A stretch of 51,281 bases of DNA from IMG/VR virus record IMGVR_UViG_3300048865_000015, positions 1-51,281 of that record, one strand, 5' to 3'. Positions 765-51,050 of this stretch are shown piece by piece (positions within the stretch are counted from its first letter, which is position 1; each line of letters begins with the position of its first letter). The stretch comes from a virus. Lineage: Duplodnaviria > Caudoviricetes. A program made the translations under genes and the position numbers. The notes beneath the pieces are model-generated. The model did not search any database and was not told the origin of the DNA. It was given only the letters and a program-made list of their open reading frames with translations.

Positions 765-867
765 AGACCGCAGGCTGGCGGCACATAAGATCATCGGTTG
801 GCGCCACATACGGACCATCAGGCAGCGCCATATAGGAAACACGGCTTGGCGGCACGCGCTCGTGCGG

Positions 868-4785: not shown

Positions 4786-4815
4786 AATAAAAAACGCCGC
4801 TGGCTAGAGCGGCGT
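4786..4815 (-). terminator. Intrinsic terminator downstream of the displaced tRNA 3' end
   Basis: Minus strand acgccgct-ctagcc-agcggcgt followed by a T-run. Confidence 0.6.
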
Positions 4816-4838
4816 AAGTGTTTAAAGCACAAGATTTT

Positions 4839-4883
4839 TGGTAGGCCCCCCGAGAGTCGAACTCGGCACCAACGGATTATGAG
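4839..4883 (-). repeat. Left att junction: displaced original 3' half of the tRNA(CAT)
   Basis: 45-bp near repeat of 50972..51016; exact 18-bp core gcaccaacggattatgag at 4866-4883 and 50999-51016. Confidence 0.93.
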
Positions 4884-4927
4884 AACGGTCCCGGTGCCCG
4901 AGGCCATTGATTTATAAGGACTTTTCG

Positions 4928-5827
4928 ATGATCGCAGCAGAGAGCGAATCGGATCATGGGCTTACAGTCCCCACGTTTTCCCCCACGGTGACCCTCCCGG
5001 CTCCTGTAGGTGCTCATGACCACGCCGCACAGCGCGAGTGGGAGCACTATCAGGTAGCCAAGGGCATCGAGCGCTACCGCCGCAGCCTCGTCCGAGAGAA
5101 CAAGCATGGCAAAGTCACCCAGCGAGACCTGGGAGATGTCACGCACGGACAGCGCATCGCTTCCGAGTTGATCGGGCCGATGGTTGCGGCGGTAAGCGAG
5201 TATCAGCAGGCGTTCGCAGACCGGCTCAACAGCCCGGACTGCCCTGACCGCCTCCCCGAGGCGACCACCGCCCTCACCCTGCTGCCGGCGGAGACCATCG
5301 CCGCCTGCGCCGTCCTGACCGCCCTGGCGAACCCCGTGGACGCCGGATGGACGTCGGTGCGAATCGCCTGCGCCGCCCGGCTCCGCCATGAGCTGGAGTA
5401 CCAGGAGTGGAAGCGGGCCGAGGCCGCCGCCGAGAAGGAGCGAAAGGCCACGGGCGAGGACGGGATCAACCTGTTCAAGCTGATGCTCCGCAGGACCAAG
5501 GGGGACGTGGACAAGCGCGTCTTCGACAAGTGGTCAAAGAAGTCCGGGAAGCTGCTCAAGCAGCACTGGGACCAGCGTCTCAAGGTCTTCATCGGCGGCG
5601 AAGTCATGACGCTGCTGGTGGAGTCCAACGGATGGTTCAAGGTCGAGTCGAAGTTCGAGCCCGGCCAGAAGTACCCGAAAGAAATGTTCGGGATGACGGA
5701 GACGGCCCTGGCCCTCACCAGTCACCTCGAAGGGCAGTGCGAATTGCAACGCCCATTCCTGGCCCCGATGATCTGCGAGCCCGCAGACTACGTGGTCGAA
5801 CCGCAGGTTTCTGCCGCTCTCAACTAA
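4928..5827 (+). CDS. T7-type RNA polymerase, N-terminal domain subunit
   Basis: QREWEHYQVAKGIERYRR resembles T7 QLALEHESYEMGEARFRK; ends RPFLAPMICEPADY resembling T7 PMFQPCVVPPKPW; AAGGA RBS before ATG 4928. Confidence 0.8.
   Translation: MIAAESESDHGLTVPTFSPTVTLPAPVGAHDHAAQREWEHYQVAKGIERYRRSLVRENKHGKVTQRDLGDVTHGQRIASELIGPMVAAVSEYQQAFADRLNSPDCPDRLPEATTALTLLPAETIAACAVLTALANPVDAGWTSVRIACAARLRHELEYQEWKRAEAAAEKERKATGEDGINLFKLMLRRTKGDVDKRVFDKWSKKSGKLLKQHWDQRLKVFIGGEVMTLLVESNGWFKVESKFEPGQKYPKEMFGMTETALALTSHLEGQCELQRPFLAPMICEPADYVVEPQVSAALN
4967..4990 (+). promoter_or_regulatory. Putative integrase arm-type site pair (CCCCACG x2)
   Basis: GTCCCCACGTTTTCCCCCACGGTG matches 50879-50902 at 21/24. Confidence 0.55.
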
Positions 5828-5845
5828 AGTGAATCGCTTACAAGG
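5825..5845 (+). promoter_or_regulatory. Operator-like palindrome (AAGTG-aat-CGCTT)
   Basis: Member of a 7-copy motif TAAAGYG-N3-CRCYT. Confidence 0.65.
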
Positions 5846-6344: not shown

Positions 6345-8048
6345 ATGACGAAACTGAACGGCGGTTACCTGACCCTCAAGACGGACGCGGTGAAGTCGAC
6401 CGAGTACACCAACACGCACACGTCGGCCCTGGACGTCCCCCTGAAGGGGGCGCACCTGGAGGCCCTGAACCACATCCAGAAGACCCGCTGGCGCATCAAC
6501 CCGCGCGTCCTGGAGACGGCCCTGGGCGTCAAGGCGCGTGCGATGAACGTCGCTGGCTTCCCCGCCTGGGAAGAGAAGAAGCTGCCGGAGTTCCCGGCGT
6601 CGGGCATCACGACCTCGCCGGAGTTCAAGGCGCACATCCGCGAGCGGGAGAAGATCCACAACGAGAACGCCCGGAACGCCGGCATGCGGAAGAAGCTCTT
6701 CGACATGCTGGCGATGGCCGACGAGCTGCGGGCATTCCCCGCGCTCTGGTTCCCGCACTACGCGGACTTCCGTGGTCGCTTCTACCCGCGCCCCCAGGAC
6801 CTGCACACGCAGGGCGATAGCCTCGTCAAGGGGCTCCTGGAGTTCGCGGAGCCGGTAATGACCAGCTCGCGCGGGTTCTTCTGGATGTGCGTCAACGCGG
6901 CGAACTACTACGGCGAGGACAAGCTGTTCCTGCATGAGCGGGCGCAGTGGGCGCAGGACCACATGGACGGCATCCTGGCCGTGGCCCACGACCCCCTGGG
7001 CGACGTGGACGCAAAGGCGTTTGAGTTCTGGTCCAACGCGGACAGCCCCTGGGAGTTCCTGGCGGCCTGCTTCGCCATCCAGGAGGCCGGCGCCTACCTG
7101 CGCGAGCACCCGGACTCCCCGACGTTCCCGAGCCGCATGGTGTGCCGCTATGACGCGACCTGCTCCGGCATCCAGCACCTCTCGGCCCTGATGAAGGACG
7201 AGAAGTCTGCCGCGCGTGTCAACGTGCTGCCCACCGGGCGCCGCGAGGACATCTACAAGGACGTGGCCGAGGCGGTGATACCCGAGATCCGCCGGGACAT
7301 CGTGAACAGCACCACGGCGGCCCTGGCGGCACTGTGGGACGGCCGAGTCGAGCGCAAGACCGTCAAGCGGGCCGTCATGACGACGCCCTATGGCGTGTCG
7401 GAGCGCGGCATTCTGACGCAGCTGGTGGCCGATGGCTTCGCTGACCACGTCGAGAAGGGCAAGGACCGCTACGCGGCGGCCGAGTACCTGACCGAGAAGA
7501 TCGTCGGTGCCCTGGACGAGTCCATCGAAGCCCCGCGCCGCGCCATGGCGTACTTCCGCGAGGTCGCCAAGTTCCTGGAAGAGCGGGACCTGCCCCTCGT
7601 GTGGGACACCCCGAGCGGGTTCACCGCGAAGCAGGCGTACTTCAAGACCGACGTGACGCGAGTCACGACGCTGTCCGGGAAGGTCACCCTGCGGCACGAG
7701 TGCCCCGAGGCCGGCTTCCAGCCCGGCAAGCAGGTCCTGGGCGCGGCGCCGAACGTGGTTCACTCGTTCGATGCGACCCACCTTGCCCTGGTGTGCGTCG
7801 AGATGAAGCGGCGCGGCATCCGCGACCTCGCCTTCGTCCATGACTCGTTCGGATGTCACGCCGAGCACAGCGACGTCCTCCTGGAAGTCACCAAGGACAA
7901 GTTCATCGAGCTGTACAGCGGCGACACGCTGGAGCAGTGGCGTCAATCAGTTATCCGGCACTCAGGGTGCCCCGATGTACCCGCAATACCTGCCCTCGGC
8001 AACCTGGACGTTGAGTGCGTCCGCAAGTCCGAGTTCTTTTTCTCCTGA
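6345..8048 (+). CDS. T7-type RNA polymerase, catalytic subunit
   Basis: DFRGRFYP, motif A YDATCSGIQH, motif B RKTVKRAVMTTPYG, motif C FVHDSFG, C-terminal FFFS. Confidence 0.95.
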   Translation: MTKLNGGYLTLKTDAVKSTEYTNTHTSALDVPLKGAHLEALNHIQKTRWRINPRVLETALGVKARAMNVAGFPAWEEKKLPEFPASGITTSPEFKAHIREREKIHNENARNAGMRKKLFDMLAMADELRAFPALWFPHYADFRGRFYPRPQDLHTQGDSLVKGLLEFAEPVMTSSRGFFWMCVNAANYYGEDKLFLHERAQWAQDHMDGILAVAHDPLGDVDAKAFEFWSNADSPWEFLAACFAIQEAGAYLREHPDSPTFPSRMVCRYDATCSGIQHLSALMKDEKSAARVNVLPTGRREDIYKDVAEAVIPEIRRDIVNSTTAALAALWDGRVERKTVKRAVMTTPYGVSERGILTQLVADGFADHVEKGKDRYAAAEYLTEKIVGALDESIEAPRRAMAYFREVAKFLEERDLPLVWDTPSGFTAKQAYFKTDVTRVTTLSGKVTLRHECPEAGFQPGKQVLGAAPNVVHSFDATHLALVCVEMKRRGIRDLAFVHDSFGCHAEHSDVLLEVTKDKFIELYSGDTLEQWRQSVIRHSGCPDVPAIPALGNLDVECVRKSEFFFS

Positions 8049-17965: not shown

Positions 17966-18576
17966 TCGGCGCCGCCGTCTCCTGGATCGCCGGGGCCATC
18001 CCGGCGTCCGCCCGTAAGTACGTCCTGGCGGCGCTCGCGGCGGTCGCCCTGGCGGTCGCGGGTCTCCTGTACCGAGCCCACGTCTACGACGAGGGTGTCA
18101 CCGCCGGCCTTGCCCAGGCCAAAGCAACCTACGACGCCGCCCTGGCCCAGGCGCGGCAGCAGGACGAGGCCGTGTCCAAGCAAGCGACCGACGCCCTGCG
18201 AACTCAACTCAAGGAGGAAACCGATGCGCACAAAGTTCGCCTGGATCAGCTCCAGGCTGCGCTGGCTACTGCTGGCGCCGATAACGTTCGCCTCAGCAAT
18301 GAGCTTGTCCGCCTGCACAACGACGCCGCCGGTGGTCGTCCGCGAGCTGCCACCGCTGCCGCCGGCCCTGGCAAAGCCGCCCCAGCCGCTGAAGGAGCTG
18401 TCAGCGTCCAGTCAGGTATCACCCTGAAGGACCTGATGCTCAATGATGAAACGAATTACACGATCTGCCGGAAGAATGCTCAACGGCATCAAGCGGTTCT
18501 GGACTGGTACAACGCCCTCCGAAATGGGGACGCAGCAGGCCAAGCCAAGGCGCTATCCGAGGTCGACGGCGAGTAA
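17962..18576 (+). CDS. Inner-membrane spanin (Rz-like)
   Basis: N-terminal TM helix, Ala-rich coiled coil, C-terminal NYTIC; contains a nested lipoprotein ORF. Confidence 0.7.
   Translation: MIGAAVSWIAGAIPASARKYVLAALAAVALAVAGLLYRAHVYDEGVTAGLAQAKATYDAALAQARQQDEAVSKQATDALRTQLKEETDAHKVRLDQLQAALATAGADNVRLSNELVRLHNDAAGGRPRAATAAAGPGKAAPAAEGAVSVQSGITLKDLMLNDETNYTICRKNAQRHQAVLDWYNALRNGDAAGQAKALSEVDGE
18224..18427 (+). CDS. Outer-membrane spanin lipoprotein (Rz1-like), nested in +1 frame
   Basis: AAGGAGG RBS at 18211; signal peptide with lipobox LSAC; Pro-rich mature part. Confidence 0.75.
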   Translation: MRTKFAWISSRLRWLLLAPITFASAMSLSACTTTPPVVVRELPPLPPALAKPPQPLKELSASSQVSP

Positions 18577-18871
18577 CTCGACACAAGGTAGAGGCGACCC
18601 TATATCTCTAAGATCCTTAGGATCTCTAGGAGAGGACGAGGGTGACATTCCGGCCAACTGCCCGAGCCAGACGGATCTCCGTACCGTCGGCAGTTGGCTC
18701 GCCCACCAATACCCCCTGGAGTCCTTGCTCGACCTGATCCGGTCCAAGGACTACTCGGCCGCCCATGAACTCACTGGTGCTCACGATGCCATCCAAGCCA
18801 TATTCCAACTGGCGGATGACCTGGACGAGGCACAGCGGGACGCGGAGCAAGCGGAAGAAGTCAGTCTGTGA
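18443..18871 (+). CDS. Hypothetical protein (start uncertain)
   Basis: Acidic helical C-terminal half fills the gap after the spanin. Confidence 0.4.
   Translation: MMKRITRSAGRMLNGIKRFWTGTTPSEMGTQQAKPRRYPRSTASNSTQGRGDPISLRSLGSLGEDEGDIPANCPSQTDLRTVGSWLAHQYPLESLLDLIRSKDYSAAHELTGAHDAIQAIFQLADDLDEAQRDAEQAEEVSL
18570..18593 (+). promoter_or_regulatory. Putative phage-RNAP (late) promoter CGAGTAACTCGACACAAGGTAGAG
   Basis: Exact 24-bp match at 48617-48640; heads the morphogenesis block. Confidence 0.6.
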
Positions 18872-21725: not shown

Positions 21726-21800
21726 TCCGAAGTAGCTCAGTGGTAGAGCCCCCGGCTGTTAACCGGGCGGTCCTTGGTTCGATCCCAAGCTTCGGAGCCA
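21726..21800 (+). tRNA. tRNA-Asn(GTT), phage-encoded
   Basis: Acceptor TCCGAAG/CTTCGGA, anticodon arm cccgg-ctGTTaa-ccggg, T arm cttgg-ttcgatc-ccaag, encoded CCA. Confidence 0.92.
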
Positions 21801-40268: not shown

Positions 40269-40552
40269 TGGCAACAGCAATCATCGCCGCCGGCACGTCC
40301 GCTCTGGCGTCCGACGACTTCACGCTGACCGCCGGGCAGACGTCCAACGTCGTCCTGGTCGGCGCTGCCGGCGCGGAGCCTGACCCGGGCGCCTTCGCTG
40401 ACGTGCAGTACAAGACGTCGGCCAACACCTACATCAAGATCGGGTCGCTCAAGGCCAACTACGTGGACCGCATAGTGACCCTCGTGGGTCCCGGGACCTT
40501 CCGCGTCAACCGGCCTGCCTCGGCCGTCTCCTGCGGCGTGGACCGGGACTGA
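40268..40552 (+). CDS. Hypothetical (probable virion) protein
   Basis: Beta-rich 94 aa, coupled. Confidence 0.6.
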   Translation: MATAIIAAGTSALASDDFTLTAGQTSNVVLVGAAGAEPDPGAFADVQYKTSANTYIKIGSLKANYVDRIVTLVGPGTFRVNRPASAVSCGVDRD

Positions 40553-41175
40553 TGCTCCGGCCCATCATCCAGGGCCTGCGGCGCGGTCAGTGCCGTCCTA
40601 CGTGCATCGACGCCCCCATGGTCGCAATGGCCGCCGGGGGCGCCACGCCGATGCAGGAGACGTTCTGGAATCCCAATGACGCAGGCGTCGGCCTGACGGT
40701 CTCTGGCGACGGCATGACCGTCCTGGACACCGACACGACCGGCTCCGCTGTCCGCTCGACCCGGGCGCAGTCCTCGGGCGTCCGCCAGTTCGAATGCGCG
40801 ATCATCGCGCTCGGCGGCGGCGGTGTAGGCGTGGGCGTGGCATCGGCCAGCTCCCCGCTCACCAGTGCCCCCGGCGGCCAATCGGGGTCCTGGGGCTACC
40901 GCTCGCCCGGCACCTCGTGGGCTCAAGGAACCCAGGTCGGCACGTGGGCCGCATACGGCCCCGGCGACATCATCGGCATCGTGTGCGACTTCAATGCCCA
41001 CACGATCAAGGCATACAAGAACGGCGTGCTCCAGGGCACCCTGACCGGCTCCGCGCTTCCCGCGACCGCCTACTGTCAAGGCGGCGCCATGGCTGGCACG
41101 GCCGGCGCATCCCTCACCCTCATTACCACCAACCTCAACTTCCCCATTGCAGGCGCTACCGCCTGGGACGATTAA
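40552..41175 (+). CDS. SPRY/B30.2-like domain protein
   Basis: VRST...SSGVRQFE, VGVGVA, YGPGDIIGIVCDF...YKNGVLQG. Confidence 0.7.
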   Translation: MLRPIIQGLRRGQCRPTCIDAPMVAMAAGGATPMQETFWNPNDAGVGLTVSGDGMTVLDTDTTGSAVRSTRAQSSGVRQFECAIIALGGGGVGVGVASASSPLTSAPGGQSGSWGYRSPGTSWAQGTQVGTWAAYGPGDIIGIVCDFNAHTIKAYKNGVLQGTLTGSALPATAYCQGGAMAGTAGASLTLITTNLNFPIAGATAWDD

Positions 41176-42000: not shown

Positions 42001-42275
42001 GCGACAACAAACAAGCCATCGAGCAGCGCTTCGAACAGTGCCTGCTCGACGGTCTCCAGGGACAACCCCTGGTGACCAAGGACGGCCCGGTGACGGACCC
42101 GGAGACCGGAGAGATCCTGAAGGGTCCCCCGGAATCCTCGTTCCTCTCCGTGGTCCTGAACTACATCAAGCTGCTGCGCGGCGAGCAGCCCCCGAAGACA
42201 CCGACCACCGGCAAGGCCAAGGGCATGCTGGCCGAATTCGAGAACCGCATGCCGTTCGGAGCCCGGCCTAATTGA
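41997..42275 (+). CDS. Terminase small subunit (probable)
   Basis: Directly upstream of the large terminase; ends in MPF. Confidence 0.65.
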   Translation: MSDNKQAIEQRFEQCLLDGLQGQPLVTKDGPVTDPETGEILKGPPESSFLSVVLNYIKLLRGEQPPKTPTTGKAKGMLAEFENRMPFGARPN

Positions 42276-44137
42276 GCCTACGCCCCTGGTGGTGGCAGTC
42301 GGATGATCCTCTCCGCGAGGACTTCCGAAACATGGCCTACCTGATCTGGGAGCATATGTCGCTCCCAGCTCCGACGCCGGCTCAATACGACATCGCGTAC
42401 TTCCTCCAGTTCGGCTGGGCCGGCTACGGCATCACGCCGCAGGGCGAGATCGTGGAATGGTTCGGCCACGAAGCGGTCGAGCCTGACCGCACCGGCTGGA
42501 CCCGGATGGGCGACGCTGACGCCGCGTTCCGCGAGGACGTCCTGGAGGCGTTCCGGGGGATCGGCAAGTCCTACCTGACCGCAGGGTTCGCCCTGTGGCG
42601 CCTGTACCGTAACCCCTTCAGCGAGAAGATCCTGGTGGTCTCTGCCTCCGGCAGCAAGGCCAAGGAATTCGTCTCGATGGCGAAGACGCTCCTGACGTCC
42701 ATGGACATCTTCGCGCACCTCGTGCCGCGCGAGGATCAACGCGACACCGCGTGGGCCTTCGACGTCAATGGCGCCTCCATCTCCCAATCCCCCTCGGTCA
42801 AGGCCGTGGGCATCACCGGGCAGATCACGGGCTCCCGCGCCACGCTCATCATCGCGGACGACATCGAGGTCACGGACAACTCCAGGACCGAAGAGGCCCG
42901 CGAGCGCCTGCTCCACAAGACCAACGAGTTCGCCGCGATCAAGGTGACCGGTGGCGCCGATGTAATCTTCCTGGGCACGCCTCAGACCGAAGAGTCCATC
43001 TACACCAAGCTGATCCGCGAGATGGGTGCCCGGGGCTGGATACTGCCGGCTCGCTACCCCATGGCGGACAAGCGGGCCTCCTACGTCTTCAAGCGCGAAG
43101 GCGGCGCCGAGATCGATTGCCTATGCCCCCGGGCTCGGGCGGTCGACGCGGACCCCACGCTGGCCTGGAAGCCCACGGACCCCGAGCGGTTCAACGAGTC
43201 CGAGTTGCAGGCACGGGAGTCCAAGGGACGCTCGTACTTCGCATTGCAGTTCCAGCTGGACACCTCCCTATCGGATGCCGAGCGGTATCCCTTGAAGCAG
43301 CACGACCTCATCGTGATGGCGTGCAACCCCTTCAAGGCGCCGATGATCGTCCAGTGGGGCAAGGACTCCAACCGGCGGAACCTCCGCGTGGACCTGATGA
43401 ACTACGGGTTCTCTGGGGACCACTGGCTCGCTCCGCTCTTCGTCGATACCGAATGGCGGGAGTATGAGCAGTCCCTGCTCTTCGTCGACCCGAGCGGCCG
43501 AGGCAAGGACGAGACGGCCTGGGCTGTCGTGAAGACCCTCCACGGCATGATCTACGCAGTGGAGACCGGCGGTATCTCCGGCGACCCCGGCGCGGCCATG
43601 GCGGCTGTCGCTGCGGCGGCGAAGAACCACAAGGTCCACGAGGTCGTCGTCGAGCCCAACTACGCCGGCGCCATCTGGATCAACGCCTTCGAGCCGATCC
43701 TGGCCAAGATATGGCCCGCTGAGAAGCCCGGGGACACCGCCGGCTGTTCCATCCGCGAGGCGGAGTGGAGCCGCACCCAGAAGGAACTCCGCATCATCGA
43801 GACGCTGGAGCCCGTCATGACCACCCACCGGCTGGTCGTGGACGAGTCCGTGGCGTCCGATGGCGTCCTGATGTACCAGCTCACCCACATCACCCGAGAG
43901 CGCAACTGCCTGACGCACGATGACCGCATTGACGCCCTTGCCGGCGCCGTGGCGGAACTCGTGAACACCCTTCGGGTGGACGTCGATCAAGCTGCGCGGG
44001 AGATGAAGGAGGCGGAAGAGGACGAGATGCTGGAGGCATTCGTCGAGAGCTGCGAGCGGTCTGAGCGCGGCGAGTGGCGCAAGCTGTCCTGGGAAGGCGA
44101 AGAGGTCTTCAGCTACGAGTCCGATTCACACCTGTAG
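42272..44137 (+). CDS. Terminase large subunit (T7 gp19-like)
   Basis: EAFRGIGKSY, GQITGSRATLIIADDIE, VDPSGRGKDET, HDDRIDAL. Confidence 0.95.
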   Translation: MSLRPWWWQSDDPLREDFRNMAYLIWEHMSLPAPTPAQYDIAYFLQFGWAGYGITPQGEIVEWFGHEAVEPDRTGWTRMGDADAAFREDVLEAFRGIGKSYLTAGFALWRLYRNPFSEKILVVSASGSKAKEFVSMAKTLLTSMDIFAHLVPREDQRDTAWAFDVNGASISQSPSVKAVGITGQITGSRATLIIADDIEVTDNSRTEEARERLLHKTNEFAAIKVTGGADVIFLGTPQTEESIYTKLIREMGARGWILPARYPMADKRASYVFKREGGAEIDCLCPRARAVDADPTLAWKPTDPERFNESELQARESKGRSYFALQFQLDTSLSDAERYPLKQHDLIVMACNPFKAPMIVQWGKDSNRRNLRVDLMNYGFSGDHWLAPLFVDTEWREYEQSLLFVDPSGRGKDETAWAVVKTLHGMIYAVETGGISGDPGAAMAAVAAAAKNHKVHEVVVEPNYAGAIWINAFEPILAKIWPAEKPGDTAGCSIREAEWSRTQKELRIIETLEPVMTTHRLVVDESVASDGVLMYQLTHITRERNCLTHDDRIDALAGAVAELVNTLRVDVDQAAREMKEAEEDEMLEAFVESCERSERGEWRKLSWEGEEVFSYESDSHL

Positions 44138-44148: not shown

Positions 44149-44265
44149 ATGACAGCGGTTGTAATCGGCAGCATCCTCGGCATCGTCCTGGGATTCACGG
44201 TGACCCTCGGGCTCACCCTGTGGGTCCTGGACCAGCTGGTGGACAGCTGCTGCCCTGGATGGTGA
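44149..44265 (+). CDS. Small membrane protein
   Basis: AAGGA RBS; 38 aa hydrophobic. Confidence 0.5.
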   Translation: MTAVVIGSILGIVLGFTVTLGLTLWVLDQLVDSCCPGW

Positions 44266-44349
44266 GGTCGTAGAACGGCCTACAAGGCGCTGGGATCACG
44301 GTGTGGGGGTAGGCTTAGGCCGCGCCTCATTCGCGCCCCCAGCGCCCGC

Positions 44350-44610
44350 CTATGCGGTCCTGTGCCCCTGCTGCTGAAGGTAGCCATGGAACCGCTGGAC
44401 CACGAAGGCGTAGTTGACGGCCTTGTTGCCCACGATGTATTCCTTGGGATCCATGGTGTCACGGAAGGCCGCATAGGCGTCCGGGTACATCGCTATCATC
44501 CTGGCGAGTTCACGGCGGGCTCGCTCATTGGCGGCCAGCAGGACGGCACGTAGAGCGATGACGGCCACGAGAAGGCACAAGGCCACCGCCGCGATGGTTC
44601 CGAGGGTCAT
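44350..44610 (-). CDS. Possible antisense membrane-anchored protein
   Basis: MTLGTIAAVALCLLVAVIAL...; only plausible minus-strand ORF in the prophage. Confidence 0.4.
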   Translation of the reverse strand: MTLGTIAAVALCLLVAVIALRAVLLAANERARRELARMIAMYPDAYAAFRDTMDPKEYIVGNKAVNYAFVVQRFHGYLQQQGHRTA

Positions 44611-44789
44611 GATGGGGCACGGGGAGTCACTGGGACGCATATGCTACCCCAGGCACCCTCGGCCTCAAAAATACCCAGAAAATGCGTGATGAGGTGTTCG
44701 GCCCCGCGCGAGCCAAGTTCCCCCCATGGCCCGGCCGGCGCCCCTCTGGCGGAATTCAAGGCTCGGCCAGGGCCGGCGGCAGGCGCATA

Positions 44790-45211
44790 CCCCACGTCAG
44801 GCCCCACGTCCCACGGGACGGCACGGGCTAACTCGTTGATCCATAAGGGCTATTGGCCCTGGCGCTATCGGATTAGGACAACGCAGGTGCCAGCACGGGC
44901 ATGCAATAGGCGTCCTGGGCGGCCTGGGACGGCACGGGATCGCATCGGGGCATGGGCGAGTGCGCACACTTGCACGCCTCTGTTTTTTTGCTTCCATGGG
45001 CAGGCAAGGCCATAGACGGCCCAGGGACACCTCATGCCTCACGGGACAACCCAGCGCCTCACCTGCCGCCACGGCACGCCTATACGGGCTGTACGGGCCG
45101 GCAATCGCCATCTATATGACGCACGGGACGGCACGGGCCGCCATCGACCTGGGATTGCGACGATCACGGGATAGCGCATGCCTGCCGATGCCGACTAAGG
45201 GACGGCACGGG
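44790..45211. repeat. Non-coding region with 4x GGGACGGCACGGG; probable virion genome end/packaging region
   Basis: Copies at 44815, 44926, 45125, 45199; lies between terminase and early promoter. Confidence 0.6.
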
Positions 45212-45284
45212 CTGGCCTGGGACCGCATGGGCTATGCCCGCTTTCGTTGCTTGTGTGCAACATCGTTGTAGATTGACACGCTTC

Positions 45285-45326
45285 TAAAGCGAGTCACTTG
45301 CAAGCTCGAAAAAACGTCTGTAGTAT
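45285..45326 (+). promoter_or_regulatory. Sigma70 early promoter TTGCAA-17-TAGTAT with operator-like site over the -35
   Basis: -35 at 45298-45303, -10 at 45321-45326; palindrome AAGCG-agt-CACTT within 45285-45300. Confidence 0.7.
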
Positions 45327-45356
45327 TCGGGTTTCAGCAGTACCGCACTACGCAAC

Positions 45357-45377
45357 TAAAGCGTTTCACTTACAAGG
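45357..45377 (+). promoter_or_regulatory. Operator-like palindrome
   Basis: TAAAGCGTTTCACTTACAAGG. Confidence 0.65.
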
Positions 45378-45387: not shown

Positions 45388-45600
45388 ATGAAACTAATTC
45401 AGACGCTCATATCAGCGGACGGCACGCGCCGGGCTCGGGTCTTTTGGGATAAGGAATGGCAAGAGTACCGAGTGTGTTTCGCCATGCGCCCGGACGGCAA
45501 GGGAACGTGGCTTGTCCAGCAAGAAGCGGATTACTTCACAAGCGAACGCGAAGATGCGCTGCGTACCGCTGAACAGTACACGCCCGGCCACGAATACTAA
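45388..45600 (+). CDS. Early hypothetical protein
   Basis: AAGGA RBS; MKLIQTL...WQEYRV. Confidence 0.65.
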   Translation: MKLIQTLISADGTRRARVFWDKEWQEYRVCFAMRPDGKGTWLVQQEADYFTSEREDALRTAEQYTPGHEY

Positions 45601-45610
45601 GGGGACAACC

Positions 45611-45775
45611 ATGCAAATCATCATGACCATACTTACCGTGCTTACCCTGGTTTCCGTTATCGGCATGGTTGCCGCTGACGCATACGCGGACCCGTCCGCA
45701 AGCAACCGCGTCCAACTGGCCGCCGTGGTGCTGTCCCTGGGCGTAACCCTGGGCATTGTTGCGGCATTTCACTAA
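45611..45775 (+). CDS. Early small two-TM membrane protein
   Basis: AAGGGG RBS; two hydrophobic helices. Confidence 0.6.
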   Translation: MQIIMTILTVLTLVSVIGMVAADAYADPSASNRVQLAAVVLSLGVTLGIVAAFH

Positions 45776-45792
45776 AGCGTTTCGCTTACAAG
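45773..45792 (+). promoter_or_regulatory. Operator-like palindrome
   Basis: TAAAGCGTTTCGCTTACAAG. Confidence 0.65.
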
Positions 45793-45797
45793 TGATA

Positions 45798-45849
45798 GGT
45801 CGAAACGGGCGTAAGCCCGTCCACGTGTAAGGCACGTGCTGATGAGACC
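45798..45849 (+). ncRNA. Hammerhead ribozyme type II (HHR1)
   Basis: ggtc-GAAA-cgggc(gtaa)gcccg-TC^-cacgtg(taagg)cacgtg-CTGATGA-gacc; predicted cleavage after 45821. Confidence 0.92.
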
Positions 45850-45886
45850 GACGCAAGCCCGCGTCATAAACAATGGAGCAATCAAA

Positions 45887-46372
45887 ATGCAAGCAACGAT
45901 CAATGACTACCTGCTGGACAAGGCACGCTCTTCGCTGACCATCTACATGATTCACGAGGCCGAAAAGCTGCGCCGTTCCCTGGGATTCGGGTATGTCGAA
46001 AGCGCAGAGGCACCAGACACCTATGACAAACTCCGCGCCGCCTGGGACGTCAGCATGCGCACAAAGGCCGCCTTGCCCGTCTACAACGGGGGAAGCGACA
46101 AGACCATATACACGATGAACGAAGGCAACTATGCCTTCCGTTTCGTCCACGATGCCGCGCATGTCATGCTCCAGGCCAATTTCAGCCCGGCAGGCGAAGC
46201 CCGCGTATTTCAGTACCTGGGCAACAAGGTAAAGCGGGCATTCGGCGCGTACAGCATGGAATACAAGCTGTACGCGGCGGACACCATCGGGCAGGTTGCG
46301 TACTACGCGGTACATCGGGACTACGTGGTGGATCAACTGGCCTTCGCCCGCGCCATGCTCCAGGTCCATTGA
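45887..46372 (+). CDS. Early hypothetical protein
   Basis: GGAG RBS; NYAFRFVHDAAH motif. Confidence 0.7.
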   Translation: MQATINDYLLDKARSSLTIYMIHEAEKLRRSLGFGYVESAEAPDTYDKLRAAWDVSMRTKAALPVYNGGSDKTIYTMNEGNYAFRFVHDAAHVMLQANFSPAGEARVFQYLGNKVKRAFGAYSMEYKLYAADTIGQVAYYAVHRDYVVDQLAFARAMLQVH

Positions 46373-46393
46373 TAAAGTGTTTCGCCTACAAGG
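46373..46393 (+). promoter_or_regulatory. Operator-like palindrome
   Basis: TAAAGTGTTTCGCCTACAAGG. Confidence 0.6.
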
Positions 46394-46401
46394 AATCGAC
46401 C

Positions 46402-46896
46402 ATGCTTCAGTCCCGAATCCATCCGCTCAAGCCTGAATTCACCTTTGCCGGTTTCACGTTCCCGCGCTACGTCGCCACGCTTCCAACCGGGACCATGAAA
46501 GCCCGGGTAAGCCAGCGCAAGCCGCCCATGACTGGCGATTATTACCACGCGCCTACGCCGAACAACCGCGCCGGCATCGGCTTCTATCTGTCGGATAGCG
46601 ACGGTTGCCCGTTCTCCCTGCGGCATCAATGGTGCGATGAGGTACACGGCGCGTACATAGATCATCGGGGATGGTTCGCGGACGATTACCAAGACACGAA
46701 GTATCGCGGCATTGTTTTCCGCCTGCCGCATGGGCGCGGTTTCCTGGCCGGCTATTCCATGGGCGAAAACATGCTTTCGTCAGTTGACTTCTATGTGTAC
46801 CGCGATGCGGTGGACGCGGCATATGCGGCCGATGCGCTGGCCGAGCAAGCGGCAGACCGTGAACGGGAATACGTAGACCAGACCGAAGGCGCGTAG
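46402..46896 (+). CDS. Early hypothetical protein
   Basis: AAGGA RBS; GWFADD...RGIVFRLPHGRGFLAG. Confidence 0.7.
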   Translation: MLQSRIHPLKPEFTFAGFTFPRYVATLPTGTMKARVSQRKPPMTGDYYHAPTPNNRAGIGFYLSDSDGCPFSLRHQWCDEVHGAYIDHRGWFADDYQDTKYRGIVFRLPHGRGFLAGYSMGENMLSSVDFYVYRDAVDAAYAADALAEQAADREREYVDQTEGA

Positions 46897-46898
46897 CA

Positions 46899-46951
46899 GG
46901 TCGAAACGGGCCATGTGCCCGTCCACGTGTAAGGCACGTGCTGATGAGACC
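46899..46951 (+). ncRNA. Hammerhead ribozyme type II (HHR2)
   Basis: As HHR1 but loop III is catgt; predicted cleavage after 46923. Confidence 0.92.
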
Positions 46952-46968
46952 AAACCGGAGATAACGCA

Positions 46969-47136
46969 ATGAACCGCGCAGACCGTCCATTGACCCCTGA
47001 AGAGCTCGACGACGAATACAACCAGGATGGCGATGGGGAACATCCCGAAATGACACGCGCCTTATGGCGTCAGCAGGTAGCGGAGCAGCGGACCATCGCG
47101 GGCTACTGGGAATGGGTTGCCTACATGCTTAGGTAG
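46969..47136 (+). CDS. Early small protein (55 aa) flanked by HHR2 and HHR3
   Basis: GGAG RBS; MNRADRPLTPEELDDEY...GEHP...WRQQV...GYWEWV; absent from the ORF track. Confidence 0.7.
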   Translation: MNRADRPLTPEELDDEYNQDGDGEHPEMTRALWRQQVAEQRTIAGYWEWVAYMLR

Positions 47137-47138
47137 CA

Positions 47139-47190
47139 GGTCGAAACGGGCGTAAGCCCGTCCACGTGTAAGGCACGTGCTGATGAGACC
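47139..47190 (+). ncRNA. Hammerhead ribozyme type II (HHR3)
   Basis: Identical to HHR1; predicted cleavage after 47162. Confidence 0.92.
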
Positions 47191-47207
47191 AAACGGGAGA
47201 TAGCCCT

Positions 47208-47432
47208 ATGACTGTACGTATTGACTTCGCCTTGTCGCTGACCATCGACGACGCCGTGGCATTCCGCAAGGCCGCGTATGAGCGTGCCCGCGAATCCATG
47301 ACGGACGAAGAGGGAGCAAGCGACTACCTGGACATTACCGCGACAAGCCTGGGGGACTGCGCCGTCATGCTGCTTGATCCGGGCTCTCTTCCCGGCGCAG
47401 AGATTCAGGACAGCACAAGCGAAGAGTTCTAA
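47208..47432 (+). CDS. Early acidic hypothetical protein
   Basis: GGAG RBS after HHR3. Confidence 0.65.
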   Translation: MTVRIDFALSLTIDDAVAFRKAAYERARESMTDEEGASDYLDITATSLGDCAVMLLDPGSLPGAEIQDSTSEEF

Positions 47433-47434
47433 CC

Positions 47435-47620
47435 ATGGAATACACGGAACGGACCATTACCGCCATGCGGGCATGCGTGCTGGCGCTTGCGGACCTGGGT
47501 AACGCCAAGGCCATAGACGCGGACCCGGCGGATTCGGAATACATCGCGCGATGCAAGGCGAATGCACGCGCGGCCCTGCGCCAGCTCGAATACGCGGACG
47601 GCGCACATTTTCAGCAGTAA
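47435..47620 (+). CDS. Early hypothetical protein
   Basis: Tightly packed 61-aa ORF. Confidence 0.55.
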   Translation: MEYTERTITAMRACVLALADLGNAKAIDADPADSEYIARCKANARAALRQLEYADGAHFQQ

Positions 47621-47633
47621 CGGAGATTCAAAC

Positions 47634-47849
47634 ATGACCATCAAAGAATACGCATTCGACGTAACCCTATTCGCGGTAATCCGCGTAAAAGCGACAAGCG
47701 AAAAGGCGGCCCGCGCAATGATCCGCGACGCTCTGAACGGTTCCGGCGCAAACCTGGGCGCGTGGCCCGATGGTGCGCCGATCATGGCCGAAGTGAGTGC
47801 GGACGGCATATGCGGGCCATGTGAGATCGACGGGGAACCGGCAGAGTGA
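47634..47849 (+). CDS. Early hypothetical protein
   Basis: GGAG RBS; MTIKEYAFDV. Confidence 0.65.
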   Translation: MTIKEYAFDVTLFAVIRVKATSEKAARAMIRDALNGSGANLGAWPDGAPIMAEVSADGICGPCEIDGEPAE

Positions 47850-47851
47850 CA

Positions 47852-47906
47852 GGACGAAACACGGCATCGCGCCGTGTCTGCGCGTGATTCGCGTACTGAT
47901 GAGTCC
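47852..47906 (+). ncRNA. Hammerhead ribozyme type II (HHR4, divergent stems)
   Basis: ggac-GAAA-cacggc(atcgc)gccgtg-TC^-tgcgcg(tgatt)cgcgta-CTGATGA-gtcc; predicted cleavage after 47878. Confidence 0.9.
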
Positions 47907-47928
47907 ATAACCCAATGTAGAGATAGAC

Positions 47929-48246
47929 ATGCAATTCCAGAAACCCGCAACCGCCGCCGCCGGCTGGCTTGGTGAGCGCGTCAAAACCGGCTTTCAATTC
48001 GAGATTGAAGGGACGCTGTATCACTTTCTGGCTGAAGCGGTTCCGCATACGTGCGCGACGCTGGCCGGTTGCTCCCTGGTGTCCGCCCGGGTCTATGAAA
48101 CCATGGGCTTCGTTACCGTGGGCATCGTGGTTTACGTGCTGCGTAAGCGCGTAAAGCGCGATGCCGTGGCGATAGAAGCCGACGCCATCAAAGCCGCCGA
48201 GACCGTCGACGCGGCCCTATCCAAAATCCGCAACCCGTACCGCTAA
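47929..48246 (+). CDS. Early hypothetical protein
   Basis: 105-aa ORF after HHR4. Confidence 0.55.
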   Translation: MQFQKPATAAAGWLGERVKTGFQFEIEGTLYHFLAEAVPHTCATLAGCSLVSARVYETMGFVTVGIVVYVLRKRVKRDAVAIEADAIKAAETVDAALSKIRNPYR

Positions 48247-48248
48247 CC

Positions 48249-48356
48249 ATGAATACCCTACTGCCCTACGTGCCCATTGAATACCCAACGCTGGACGAGG
48301 TAATCGAGTCGATACCCGCCCTGGTCGAATACCTCAATGATTCGGCCGGCAACTAA
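48249..48356 (+). CDS. Small acidic peptide (35 aa)
   Basis: MNTLLPYVPIEYPTLDEVIE...; stop codon is part of an operator-like motif. Confidence 0.4.
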   Translation: MNTLLPYVPIEYPTLDEVIESIPALVEYLNDSAGN

Positions 48357-48369
48357 AGCGAGTCACCTA
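48354..48369 (+). promoter_or_regulatory. Operator-like palindrome
   Basis: TAAAGCGAGTCACCTA. Confidence 0.55.
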
Positions 48370-48616
48370 GTAGAGCTGGGACCGTCCAGGACGGCCCTAG
48401 GCGCGATTTCCGGCCCGGGATGGTATGTTGATGTACCCCCGGGCTTTCGTGCGCCCCTGGGCCGTTTAAATGCGTCCCGCGCCCCGCAAGCAACCGGACA
48501 TAGGGTGAGACCCATTCCGACGCCCCGAATTCCAGCAGCACGCCTCAGCCGGCCGGTGACCTCTCCGCGCAGCCTGGGGCATCGTTGCCTCTATCTAGCC
48601 TTAGCGCGGCCGGTTT

Positions 48617-48640
48617 CGAGTAACTCGACACAAGGTAGAG
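48617..48640 (+). promoter_or_regulatory. Putative phage-RNAP promoter
   Basis: Exact copy of 18570-18593. Confidence 0.6.
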
Positions 48641-48917
48641 TCGCTGGGATAGTCTATAAGATGTCTATATGACATCTAGGGATAGCACTGGTTAACACGG
48701 GAGTGTCGCTGATTGCCACTCCCCCACTGACAATGTCCTGACTTACAGTGCCTGTCAGCCATCTGTAGCACCACACCAACAACTTGTAATACATCGTGAT
48801 GCGATATGAAAACCCTTGCATAATTTAAAGGGATTTGCTGAGGGACCATCTATCTAGTTGCAGTACCCTTTGAAGTTAGACGGTATCATTAACCCGCCTT
48901 AACCCGGAGAGTAGTCC

Positions 48918-49525: not shown

Positions 49526-50752
49526 ATGACACTCTACAAGCGGCCTGATAGCGACGTCTGGTGGTACGAGTTCCAGGTGGCGGGCAACCGCTACCGTGGC
49601 AGCACCAAGACGGCCAATAAGCGCGAAGCGACGGCCATTGAGGTCGAGCGGAGGCGGGAAGCCGTCGAGGACCTGTCGCGTGCCCGTCTGGGCATAAAGC
49701 GATTCACTTTGTGGGAAGTCGCTCAGAAGTGGCTGGCCTCGTCCGAGCATGCACTGAAGGACCACAAGAACAACGTGAGCCGCGTGCGCAAGCTCTTCGG
49801 GATCGAGATGGTCCAGGAGGGCAAGGGCAACTGGGTGGAGGTCGAGGGCAAGCGCTACGGCCTGTCCAAGACCCTCTATGTCCACGAGGTGACCCAGGAC
49901 ACCCTGATGACCCTCCGGGACACCCGTGTCCGCGAAGGGAACTCCCCGGCCACCATCAACCGCGAGATGTCGCTGATGCAGTCCCTGATGGGCTACGCGG
50001 CGGACATGCGCTGCGTGATGCCGGCCGTGCCTATCGTGTGGAGCCAGAAGCGCAACCGCGCGGCGTCGCTGAAGATGCGGGAGCCGGGCGGCAAGCTGCG
50101 CTGGCTCACCGTACCCGAAGAGAAGGCCGTGCTCGCCAAGCTGGCCGAGGCGATCCATGAGGGCGACTGCGCCGGCCAGGACAACTACGACCTGTCCGTG
50201 CTGCTCCTGGACACCGGGGCGCGGTACAGCGAGATCGCGGAGCTGAAGTGGTCCCAGGTGGACCTGGACGCGGGCCGGATCTACCTGTACCGCCCCAAGG
50301 TGGACAACGAGGGCGGCCTGGACCTCACGGCGCGGTCCCTGGAGATCCTTAAGCGGCGCCGGGAAGCCACGCGGCCCCGTAGCTTCGTCTTCCCGGGCAT
50401 GCGCCCGGCGGGCCGAGGCCGGCAGGTGTGGGTGGATGTGGATGTGTGCCGTGGGCATGCGACGGACGGCATACAGCAGGCGATAGACGCCGCCGGCCTG
50501 AACGCGGACCTCTCGCGCGGCAAGGCGACGCCGCACACCTTCCGGGACACCTTCGCGTCACGGCTGGTCCAGGCGGGCCTGTCGCTTCTCAAGGTGAGCC
50601 ATCTGCTCGGCCACGCGGACGAGTCGATGACCCGTAAGTACGCGCACCTGTGCCCGGAGAACACCGGACGCGAGGCGCGGGACCTCCTGAACCGGCTGCA
50701 TGCGAGTAACTCGACACAGGGTGACGACCCTATCGCCGTCGCCCTGGGTTGA
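49526..50752 (+). CDS. int: Tyrosine integrase
   Basis: Arm-binding N-terminus LYKR..VWWYEF; DTGARYSE, HTFRDTFASRL, LLGH, KYAH. Confidence 0.95.
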   Translation: MTLYKRPDSDVWWYEFQVAGNRYRGSTKTANKREATAIEVERRREAVEDLSRARLGIKRFTLWEVAQKWLASSEHALKDHKNNVSRVRKLFGIEMVQEGKGNWVEVEGKRYGLSKTLYVHEVTQDTLMTLRDTRVREGNSPATINREMSLMQSLMGYAADMRCVMPAVPIVWSQKRNRAASLKMREPGGKLRWLTVPEEKAVLAKLAEAIHEGDCAGQDNYDLSVLLLDTGARYSEIAELKWSQVDLDAGRIYLYRPKVDNEGGLDLTARSLEILKRRREATRPRSFVFPGMRPAGRGRQVWVDVDVCRGHATDGIQQAIDAAGLNADLSRGKATPHTFRDTFASRLVQAGLSLLKVSHLLGHADESMTRKYAHLCPENTGREARDLLNRLHASNSTQGDDPIAVALG

Positions 50753-50846
50753 GAAACTGGACACAGGGTGACGACCCTATGGCCGTAGCCCAACAAGTCA
50801 GGAGACGGTCATGCGCGAGTAACTGGACACAGGGTGACGACCCTAT
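50704..50846 (+). repeat. Three 30-bp direct repeats GAGWAACTSGACACAGGGTGACGACCCTAT
   Basis: Copies at 50704, 50751, 50817; first part matches the promoter-like motif at 18570/48617. Confidence 0.85.
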
Positions 50847-50878
50847 CGGGACGTTGCGTGGGAGCCACGATGCAAGTG

Positions 50879-50949: not shown

Positions 50950-50971
50950 CCTGAGTTTGCTCAGGTTTTAT
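50950..50971 (+). terminator. Hairpin/terminator next to att
   Basis: cctgag-tttg-ctcagg followed by ttttat. Confidence 0.45.

Positions 50972-51050
<79 letters not shown>

What the first reader, a model, noticed from the sequence alone, without database searches (positions are those of the whole stretch)
45798..47906. Four hammerhead ribozymes punctuate the phage early operon: a self-processing mRNA system
Seen: four intergenic elements (45798, 46899, 47139, 47852) carry the full hammerhead core (GAAA, GUC cleavage triplet, CUGAUGA) with three paired stems in type II topology. HHR2-4 start 2 nt after a stop codon, and all four precede an RBS/ATG. HHR4 has different sequences in all three stems yet keeps pairing, and HHR2 differs from HHR1/3 only in loop III, which indicates selection on structure. 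Known: T7 early mRNA is cut between genes by host RNase III; hammerhead cleavage leaves 5'-OH and 2',3'-cyclic phosphate ends. Inference: this phage replaces RNase III processing with self-cleavage, giving downstream cistrons a 5'-OH, hairpin-capped leader like a natural ribozyme insulator. Hammerheads have been reported in prophage regions, so the serial gene-punctuating layout is the notable part; I cannot verify novelty.
Basis: partly seen in the sequence, partly recalled or inferred. Interest (0 to 1): 0.95.

Follow-up and report, generated by a model that had tools for sequence, protein, structure and literature searches.

The report
Four hammerhead ribozymes between phage early genes
Four genuine self-cutting hammerhead RNA motifs sit between small genes of a temperate T7-like prophage and probably chop its early message into single-gene pieces, an arrangement already described for prophages in 2011.

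Summary
Four type II hammerhead motifs lie at 45798-45849, 46899-46951, 47139-47190 and 47852-47906 (+). Each has the full catalytic core and three stems, and each sits between a stop codon and the next ribosome-binding site. A structural descriptor finds these 4 and 0 in 300 shuffles.

They score 27-32 bits against Rfam RF02276, below its 37-bit cut-off. I found no loop I/3'-tail pseudoknot.

The host element is a temperate T7-like prophage. All 9 relatives with 72-76% identical RNA polymerase carry 2-3 such hammerheads in the region ahead of the polymerase gene.

In public viral contigs the same compact form is common. I found 109 further copies in 71 loci, up to 8 per locus. Covariation is strong (99.7% paired against 65% shuffled), and 73 of 109 copies lie within -1..+4 nt of an upstream stop.

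The serial gene-flanking layout and the mRNA-processing idea were published in 2011 (PMC3088659). This scan has also noted similar arrays on other DNA. Cleavage here is untested. Replacement of RNase III is an analogy only. Verdict: real, a new member of a known kind.

The parts
45798..45849 (+). HHR1, type II hammerhead; predicted cleavage between 45821 and 45822
   Evidence: Sequence; RF02276 31.8 bits; MFE is a three-way junction; descriptor hit
46899..46951 (+). HHR2, type II hammerhead; predicted cleavage between 46923 and 46924; starts 2 nt after the TAG at 46894-46896
   Evidence: (28.5 bits). In 112-nt context the MFE is a competing fold but the centroid is the hammerhead
47139..47190 (+). 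HHR3, identical to HHR1; predicted cleavage between 47162 and 47163; starts 2 nt after the TAG at 47134-47136
   Evidence: (28.4 bits)
47852..47906 (+). HHR4, type II hammerhead with different sequence in all three stems; predicted cleavage between 47878 and 47879; starts 2 nt after the TGA at 47847-47849
   Evidence: (27.2 bits)
45388..45775 (+). Two small ORFs (45388-45600, phrog_7884; 45611-45775, no family) upstream of HHR1
45771..45792 (+). Copy of a six-copy 22-nt near-palindromic motif, directly before HHR1. A candidate operator or promoter, so HHR1 may trim a 5' leader rather than separate two cistrons
   Evidence: A similar motif precedes both hammerheads of relative L029
45887..46896 (+). 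Two ORFs between HHR1 and HHR2: 45887-46372 (phrog_7806) and 46402-46896 (phrog_33651, homologue of BcepNazgul gp10). Functions unknown
46969..47136 (+). 55-aa ORF (phrog_11556) bracketed by HHR2 and HHR3. Double cleavage would release a 239-nt RNA (46924-47162)
46893..46964 (+). About 72-nt repeat unit holding a stop codon, a hammerhead and a ribosome-binding site. The second copy is at 47133-47203
   Evidence: Read; core repeat listed as family D5
47208..47849 (+). Three small ORFs between HHR3 and HHR4 (47208-47432, 47435-47620, 47634-47849), with no hammerhead between them and no family match
47929..48246 (+). 105-aa ORF downstream of HHR4

Best explanation
The four elements are functional cis-acting type II hammerhead ribozymes in the early (pre-RNA-polymerase) gene block of a temperate T7-like prophage.

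Proposed mechanism (inferred, not shown here):
- As the block is transcribed, each element folds and cuts itself after the GUC.
- The upstream piece then ends about 25 nt after its stop codon, in hairpin III with a 2',3'-cyclic phosphate.
- The downstream piece starts with a 5'-OH, hairpin I and the CUGAUGA strand. A free 17-37 nt leader with the ribosome-binding site follows.
- The long message would thus become units of one to three genes: 45822-46923, 46924-47162, 47163-47878 and 47879 onward. The stability and translation of each unit would be uncoupled from its neighbours.
- HHR1 follows a candidate operator or promoter motif, so it may instead trim a 5' leader.

Shown here: motif identity, covariation, conservation within the phage clade, and the stereotyped stop-ribozyme-RBS layout. 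Inferred: cleavage in vivo, the end chemistry (general hammerhead chemistry), and any effect on stability or translation.
For: Core and stems:
- All four have a complete consensus core with no mispair next to it. They meet the acceptance rules quoted from Perreault 2011.
- The descriptor gives 4 hits against 0 in 300 shuffles.
- RF02276 aligns all four end to end.
- HHR4 keeps all pairs despite different stem sequences.

Wider family:
- A model built from HHR1-3 found 115 matches at E<=1e-3 in the window, L029 and 71 of the 80 viral loci fetched by a core pattern.
- On that alignment 99.7% of cells pair, against 65.4% in shuffles and 25-42% in slid controls. 13 of 16 pairs show double changes.

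Layout:
- 73 of 109 outside copies have an ORF end within -1..+4 nt upstream, against 4.5% of 2180 random placements.
- 91 of 109 have both an upstream ORF end and a downstream ORF start, against 27% at random.

Clade conservation:
- 9 of 9 records with RNA polymerase 72-76% identical carry 2-3 copies.
- In the record with direct terminal repeats, the copies lie 4.9-6.6 kb upstream of the polymerase gene on the same strand, again as TGA-CA-hammerhead.

Other:
- No terminator-like or promoter-like site above chance occurs inside the array.
- Published precedent: tandem prophage hammerheads cleave in vitro and in vivo (PMC3088659). Type II hammerheads near phage-like genes of Desulfovibrio vulgaris cleave in vivo (PMC8782182).
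Against: - No cleavage data exist for these copies.
- One contig from a metatranscriptome library (151 nt, depth 2.3) runs across the HHR1 site uncut, although DNA carry-over or an uncleaved fraction would give the same result.
- The scores are below Rfam's curated cut-off.
- I found no loop I/3'-tail pseudoknot. Loop-tail complementarity equals that of shuffled tails. Perreault et al. found such tertiary contacts critical for fast cleavage at 0.5 mM Mg2+, so these copies could be slow.
- The isolated folds beat shuffles only modestly.
- In context, the MFE of HHR2 is a competing fold.
- The pattern scan fixed the core and part of stem II, and the alignment was fitted to the model. Both inflate the pairing figures somewhat.
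- Of 36 loci fetched through the neighbouring 164-aa gene (L005-L041, with L029 set aside) and searched, only one other (L025) gave even a weak match, a variant core. The ribozymes therefore do not travel with that gene.
Confidence: 0.72

Rival explanations
1. The ribozymes mark mobile or shufflable gene cassettes. The roughly 70-nt stop-hammerhead-RBS unit would be a repeat that promotes recombination and exchange of small genes at the DNA level. RNA cleavage would be secondary or a passenger property.
For: HHR2 and HHR3 units are near-identical over about 72 nt and bracket one 55-aa gene. Hammerhead positions differ between relatives: in L029 a hammerhead precedes the 164-aa gene, here one follows it. 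The genes they flank are not constant (Perreault's wording).
Against: Strong compensatory covariation and an invariant catalytic core across 109 outside copies show selection on the RNA fold, not merely on a DNA repeat. Most copies in one array differ in stem sequence, which is poor for homologous recombination.
Confidence: 0.1
2. Double cleavage releases RNAs with 5'-OH and cyclic-phosphate ends. These would be rejoined, by the hammerhead itself or by an RtcB-type ligase, into circular or spliced RNAs, for example a 239-nt circle carrying the 55-aa ORF.
For: HHR2 and HHR3 share stems I, II and III. The two ends of the 46924-47162 product could therefore re-form one hammerhead that brings the ends together.
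Against: Perreault et al. looked for circular or spliced products from tandem prophage hammerheads and detected none (data not shown in their paper). No joints appeared in the runs laid, which were contigs only. Only one of the three intervals here is bracketed by matching ribozymes.
Confidence: 0.06
3. Cleavage is conditional rather than constitutive. These are slow, pseudoknot-less hammerheads whose folding is gated. One gate could be a ribosome terminating 0-4 nt upstream, which would cover the 5' strand of stem II. Another could be Mg2+. Processing would then report on translation or physiology.
For: No pseudoknot was found. The stop codon abuts the ribozyme in 73 of 109 copies. HHR2 has a competing fold with upstream coding sequence. 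Perreault et al. raise regulated cleavage for phage variants.
Against: Tight spacing may only reflect genome economy. Two features suggest a different tertiary contact that could give fast cleavage: a conserved A just 5' of stem II (112 of 113), and a 7-bp stem I (101 of 113) with a 3-nt loop (85 of 113). Nothing here measures rate.
Confidence: 0.1
4. The motifs are chance look-alikes or dead relics with no activity.
For: Scores are below Rfam's gathering score. The control genomes also give sub-threshold RF02276 hits in 6 of 14 genomes.
Against: 0 hits in 300 shuffles against 4 observed. All core positions are intact. The elements are conserved in 9 of 9 close relatives with covarying stems.
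Confidence: 0.02

Closest known systems
Clustered hammerhead ribozymes flanking genes in prophages (Perreault et al. 2011, PMC3088659; passages and section 7 read; figures and supplements not seen)
   Same: Type II topology, consensus core, prophage context near an integrase, and several copies flanking single genes or short gene blocks of unknown function. The proposed role is the same: cutting long phage transcripts into operon- or gene-length mRNAs.
   Different: These copies lack the loop I/3'-tail pseudoknot of the published type II consensus. They have a 4-bp stem II, and in the wider family a 7-bp stem I with a 3-nt loop (85 of 113). The host phage is T7-like. I could not check whether the published examples include such phages, because figures and supplements are closed.
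Rfam RF02276 Hammerhead_II
   Same: Full-length alignment to the model. It covers the core, stems I and III, and the conserved A before stem II.
   Different: 27-32 bits against a gathering score of 37. 0 of 42 copies in 12 related or similar loci reach the cut-off, so default annotation misses this compact form.
RNase III processing sites of the T7 early transcript (recalled textbook knowledge; no call)
   Same: Intercistronic position in the early block that lies ahead of the RNA polymerase gene of a T7-type genome. Products retain a terminal hairpin.
   Different: A host protein enzyme cuts a long duplex and leaves 5'-phosphate and 3'-OH ends. Here the RNA would cut itself, leaving 5'-OH and 2',3'-cyclic phosphate. 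No evidence shows that one replaced the other.
Type II hammerheads near phage-like genes in Desulfovibrio vulgaris, shown to cleave in vivo by cyPhyRNA-seq (PMC8782182; abstract and passages read)
   Same: Type II hammerheads, two of them close together, beside hypothetical, phage-like and HTH genes.
   Different: A different organism, and those copies were predicted with Rfam's model. No sequence comparison was made here.
Synthetic ribozyme insulators such as RiboJ (recalled; no call)
   Same: Self-cleavage just upstream of a ribosome-binding site, leaving a hairpin-led 5'-OH leader that uncouples a gene from upstream sequence.
   Different: An engineered part derived from a satellite RNA hammerhead, not a natural phage element.

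Membership tests
Hammerhead ribozyme, type II (RF02276) | Conserved core: C3 U4 G5 A6 N7 G8 A9, G12 A13 A14, A15.1-U16.1, and H17 not G | tested here: met
   All four read CUGAUGA, GAAA, an A-U closing pair and GUC
Hammerhead ribozyme, type II (RF02276) | Three helices around the core with standard pairs next to it (10.1-11.1, 1.1-2.1, 15.1-16.1), supported by covariation | tested here: met
   Stems of 4 pairs (II), 6-7 (III) and 6-7 (I). On the wider family, 99.7% of cells pair and 13 of 16 pairs show double changes
Hammerhead ribozyme, type II (RF02276) | Circular permutation: stems I and III capped by loops, stem II open | tested here: met
   The order is stem II 5' strand, GAAA, hairpin III, GUC, hairpin I, CUGAUGA, stem II 3' strand
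Hammerhead ribozyme, type II (RF02276) | Score at or above Rfam's gathering threshold (37 bits) | tested here: not met
   31.8, 28.5, 28.4 and 27.2 bits; nothing listed at gathering. This is a curation threshold, not a biochemical feature
Hammerhead ribozyme, type II (RF02276) | Pseudoknot between loop I and the 3' tail (present in a majority of type II hammerheads, not in all, per PMC3088659) | tested here: not met
   The longest loop-tail helix is 1-3 bp in the four copies, and the family distribution equals that of shuffled tails
Hammerhead ribozyme, type II (RF02276) | Site-specific self-cleavage giving 2',3'-cyclic phosphate and 5'-OH ends | not testable with these tools
   Only contigs of one metatranscriptome were available. 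One bridges HHR1 uncut at depth 2.3, which is inconclusive
Clustered prophage hammerheads (Perreault 2011) | Several hammerheads on the coding strand that flank single genes or short blocks in a prophage | tested here: met
   Four copies in 2.1 kb, each between a stop and a start. Prophage with integrase and att repeats at 4835-4883 and 50968-51016
T7-like (single-subunit RNA polymerase) podophage | Phage RNA polymerase, primase-helicase, DNA polymerase, connector, capsid, tail tube, internal virion protein and terminase, in T7 order | tested here: met
   PHROG hits in that order along 4907-44137. The polymerase is in two ORFs

The most novel reading that the evidence does not exclude
In this clade of temperate T7-like phages, self-cleaving hammerheads do the job that host RNase III sites do in T7. 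They would cut the early transcript between genes, so early expression would not depend on a host nuclease. Each early message would carry a 5'-OH, hairpin-led end that 5'-end-dependent decay would handle differently. The compact form without a pseudoknot (4-bp stem II with a conserved A 5' of it and usually an A 3' of it, 7-bp stem I, usually a 3-nt loop) would use a tertiary contact that has not been described.
Probability: 0.2. Interest if true: 0.55.

Novelty: new member of a known kind. Interest (0 to 1): 0.33.

Why it matters
What bacterial and phage hammerheads do is still called largely unresolved (2019 review PMC6765202, passages read).

This case adds three modest points.
- The ribozymes are a clade-wide feature of the pre-polymerase early block of temperate T7-like phages (the window plus 9 of 9 close relatives). 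Seven of those relatives are classed as proviruses. If any sits in a culturable strain, the processing hypothesis could be tested by induction and end-specific RNA-seq.
- A very common compact type II form falls under Rfam's cut-off. 0 of 42 copies reach it, so routine annotation misses these arrays.
- The layout of stop codon, 0-4 nt, ribozyme, about 17-30 nt, start codon is stereotyped across many phages. This ties cleavage closely to translation termination and initiation.

None of this changes the known picture of prophage hammerheads.

Tried and rejected
Searches that led nowhere or gave little:
- A near-exact pattern from HHR1-3 found 0 stretches in viral contigs.
- Single-protein locus searches gave 1 locus for the 164-aa ORF and 0 for the RNA polymerase. 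Alignments were needed instead.
- The BcepNazgul homologous region and L003 hold no hammerhead. The Rfam E-value search gave only a chance miRNA hit.
- blastn against phage records gave only short 69-86% matches inside the 164-aa gene.
- Pfam found nothing for the nine small ORFs. PHROGs gave only families of unknown function.

Weak hits treated as chance:
- SAM-SAH hit at 45847-45880: 20.5 bits against a cut-off of 40.
- RF02276 hit at 40509-40554: 11.3 bits.
- A loose regex hit on the - strand at 19116-19084, which fails the stem test.
- A 3/3/3-pair hit in L040.

Pseudoknot: none found by eye or by count.

Sequencing runs:
- X1 is probably the source sample.
- X3 covers only 47370-47601.
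- X2 (an RNA library) gave two contigs. One bridges HHR1. No ends, strand or level can be read from contigs, so the runs give neither support nor refutation. A part without cover means nothing.

Other checks:
- The sigma-70 and terminator scan gave nothing above chance.
- Five records with the largest arrays gave no T7-type polymerase hit, but they are only 57-78% complete.
- 39 of 109 outside copies lie inside a stop-free same-strand frame of at least 80 codons. I read this as the usual long open frames of GC-rich DNA, but I did not call genes properly.
- Supplements and figures of PMC3088659 were not available. They may list hammerheads of this compact form or from T7-like prophages.
Full report
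**What is there.** The stretch 45798-47906 holds four copies of one RNA design on the + strand. The design reads:
- A-GGUC (or GGAC);
- GAAA;
- a 6-7 bp hairpin closed by A-U;
- GUC;
- a 17-nt hairpin;
- CUGAUGA;
- GACC (or GUCC).

This is the hammerhead core in the type II permutation, with stems I and III capped and stem II open. All core positions match the consensus, and the three pairs next to the core are standard. These are the acceptance rules used by Perreault et al. (passage).

**Is it more than chance?**
- A descriptor requiring the core plus stems of at least 4, 4 and 3 pairs finds exactly these four on the + strand, none on the - strand, and none in 300 dinucleotide-preserving shuffles of the whole 51-kb window on both strands.
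- Rfam's type II model (RF02276) aligns all four from position 1 to 66 at 31.8, 28.5, 28.4 and 27.2 bits, with E 6e-4 to 9e-3 for the 2.3 kb searched.
- These scores are under the 37-bit gathering score, so the default whole-window search lists only two tRNAs.
- The genome tool's filtered search recovered only HHR4.
- Each isolated element folds into the three-way junction as its MFE. The energies beat shuffles only modestly (z -1.8 to -2.5).
- With flanks, the hammerhead is the MFE for HHR1, HHR3 and HHR4 and the centroid for all four. The MFE of HHR2 is a competing fold with upstream coding sequence.

**Details of the four.**
- HHR1 and HHR3 are identical. HHR2 differs only in loop III.
- HHR4 differs in all three stems and keeps every pair, including a U-A to A-U swap in stem II.
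- HHR2, HHR3 and HHR4 begin 2 nt after a stop codon (TAG-CA or TGA-CA). HHR1 begins 22 nt after one.
- An ATG follows at +37, +17, +17 and +22, preceded by GGAG- or GAGA-type motifs.
- HHR2 and HHR3 belong to a roughly 72-nt near-identical unit of stop, ribozyme and ribosome-binding site. The two copies bracket a 55-aa ORF.
- HHR1 is directly preceded by one copy of a six-copy, near-palindromic 22-nt motif. It may therefore lie at the start of a transcript rather than between two cistrons.

**Context.**
- The window is a prophage of about 46 kb between imperfect 49-nt repeats at 4835-4883 and 50968-51016. The second repeat overlaps a tRNA-Met gene.
- The gene order is T7-type. It runs single-subunit RNA polymerase (two ORFs, 4907-5827 and 6345-8048), primase-helicase, DNA polymerase, connector, capsid, tail protein, internal virion protein, and terminase at 42272-44137.
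- After the terminase come about 1 kb without convincing ORFs, the small-gene block with the ribozymes (45388-48246), an HTH protein, and an integrase.
- On the excised circle the ribozyme block therefore lies ahead of the polymerase gene, where T7 has its early genes.
- A relative with direct terminal repeats shows this order directly: hammerheads, a 424-aa ORF that I take to be the integrase (not tested), then the two polymerase ORFs, all on one strand.
- 'Early operon' is thus a reasonable inference from synteny. It is not shown.
- The nine small proteins have no Pfam family and only PHROGs of unknown function.
- No terminator-like or sigma-70-like site above chance lies within the array.

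**Relatives.**
- An alignment of the polymerase with its 75%-identical homologue fetched ten loci.
- Nine records have polymerases 72-76% identical. All nine carry 2-3 matches to my model R1 (G001; G011-G018). These counts are lower bounds, because the tool's first look missed one copy in G001.
- The tenth record, at 30% identity and 82% complete, has none.
- Stems differ between relatives while pairing is kept. One example is GGCC/GGCC in stem II in L171.
- By contrast, the neighbouring 164-aa gene is shared with many unrelated phages (99 homologues). Of the 36 other loci fetched through it (L005-L041 without L029) and searched, only L025 has a weak variant copy, with an extra A in the core (18.8 bits). 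L003 and L004 (BcepNazgul) have none either.
- The ribozymes therefore belong to the T7-like clade's early block, not to that gene.

**The wider family.**
80 loci were returned.
- Model R1 (built from HHR1-3) then found 115 matches at E<=1e-3: 4 in the window, 2 in L029, and 109 in 71 of the 80 loci.
- Copies per locus: one copy in 51 loci, two in 13, three in 2, four in 3, six in 1 and eight in 1. Copies within a locus are on one strand.
- On this alignment 99.7% of 1693 cells pair, against 65.4% in shuffles and 25-42% in slid controls. 13 of 16 pairs show changes on both sides.
- Caveats: the pattern fixed the core and most of stem II, and the alignment is fitted to the model.
- 73 of 109 outside copies have an ORF end within -1..+4 nt upstream, against 4.5% of 2180 random placements. 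104 of 109 have an ORF start within 80 nt downstream, against 65%. 91 of 109 have both, against 27%.
- Five records with the largest arrays gave no T7-type polymerase hit, but they are incomplete. The layout is probably not confined to T7-like phages.

**Form of the ribozyme.** Counts are on the 113 of 115 copies that could be parsed.
- Stem I has 7 pairs in 101 of 113 copies, and its loop has 3 nt in 85.
- H17 is C in 110.
- The nucleotide just 5' of stem II is A in 112. The one just 3' of it is A in 83.
- Complementarity between loop I and the 3' tail is no greater than with shuffled tails, so the pseudoknot of the published type II consensus is absent.
- Perreault et al. state that many hammerheads lack known contacts, so this absence is not new. 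It does leave open whether these copies are fast at physiological Mg2+.
- None of 42 R1 matches in 12 loci reaches any Rfam gathering score. Routine annotation will not show these arrays.

**Expression evidence.** Three public runs hold parts of the stretch, all kept as contigs.
- The DNA run that is probably the source breaks its contigs at the repeated ribozymes.
- A metatranscriptome run gave two contigs. One of 151 nt, at depth 2.3, spans 45779-45929 and so crosses the HHR1 site uncut.
- This fits an uncleaved fraction, DNA in the library, or an inactive ribozyme. It decides nothing.

**Mechanism.** The best-supported reading is co-transcriptional self-cleavage. It would turn the early transcript into units of one to three genes.
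- Each upstream unit would end in hairpin III with a cyclic phosphate, about 25 nt after its stop codon.
- Each downstream unit would begin with 5'-OH, hairpin I and a free ribosome-binding site.
- The end chemistry follows from general hammerhead chemistry. Effects on stability and translation are inferred.
- Because the stop codon abuts the ribozyme, a terminating ribosome would cover the 5' strand of stem II. Cleavage and upstream translation may therefore interact. This is my inference and is untested.

**Comparison with what is known.**
- Perreault et al. 2011 described hundreds of bacterial hammerheads near integrases and prophages. [quoted passage not shown]
- They showed cleavage of three tandem arrangements in vitro, and of the Agrobacterium triple in vivo.
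- A 2019 review still calls the role unresolved.
- A 2021 study showed in vivo cleavage of three type II hammerheads near phage-like genes.
- My literature searches turned up no paper tying hammerheads to T7-like prophages specifically. Only listings were scanned, and supplements are closed.
- The RNase III comparison with T7 rests on recalled textbook knowledge and on position only.
- This scan has already noted similar arrays on other DNA, including two type II hammerheads in a T7-like temperate phage.

**Verdict.** The element is a new member of a known kind. The modest additions are clade-wide conservation in temperate T7-like phages, a compact form missed by Rfam's threshold, and a quantified stop-ribozyme-start layout.

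Noticed in passing
window 5823-5844, 45283-45304, 45355-45376, 45771-45792, 46371-46392, 48352-48373 (+): A six-copy 22-nt motif with a 13-nt near-palindrome of the form AAGYGnnnYRCYT. Five copies lie in the small-gene block and one lies between the two RNA polymerase ORFs. A similar motif precedes both hammerheads of relative L029. It is a candidate repressor operator or promoter.
   Followed up: partly
window 18570-18596, 48617-48643, 50703-50729, 50816-50842; also three 41-nt copies at 50704-50857: A second repeat family (CGAGTAACTCGACACAAGGTAGAG-like) that loosely resembles single-subunit polymerase promoters. One copy lies before the virion genes and one before the HTH gene. Three copies overlap the integrase 3' end and the spacer before att.
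   Followed up: no
window 4907-5827 and 6345-8048 (+); L171 8141-9034 and 10001-11692: The T7-type RNA polymerase is encoded as two ORFs (phrog_414 positions 5-245 and 248-816) separated by about 0.5 kb. The same split seems present in the relative L171.
   Followed up: partly
window 4835-4883 and 50968-51016; tRNA-Met 50972-51050 (-): 49-nt repeats at 90% identity mark the prophage ends at a tRNA-Met gene. Sequence outside them (1-4834, and 51051 onward with an rpoD-like 3' end) looks like host DNA.
   Followed up: partly
window 2024-3075 and 3676-4673: Two tandem copies of about 1 kb, 76-90% identical, in the host-side flank. This looks like a duplicated gene.
   Followed up: no
window 21726-21800 (+): A tRNA-Asn (GTT) gene inside the structural module, between the ORF ending at 21718 and the major capsid gene.
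   Followed up: no
window 44265-45298: About 1 kb between terminase and the first small gene, without a convincing ORF, holding three copies of GGGACGGCACGGG-type repeats (44926, 45125, 45199). It is probably the region of the genome ends and early promoters.
   Followed up: no
L025 6425-6491 (+): A hammerhead-like element with an extra A in the core (CUGAAUGA), a longer loop I and 18.8 bits to R1. It resembles the A6a insertion variant that Perreault et al. report as slow.
   Followed up: no
L068 2151-4801 (+); L046 7261-11601 (-): Arrays of 8 and 6 compact type II hammerheads within 2.7 and 4.3 kb of viral contigs that gave no T7-type polymerase hit.
   Followed up: partly
window 45850-45865 (+): A 5-bp hairpin (GACGC...GCGUC) directly after HHR1. 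Its loop repeats the GCCCG of stem III. HHR2, HHR3 and HHR4 have no such hairpin.
   Followed up: no
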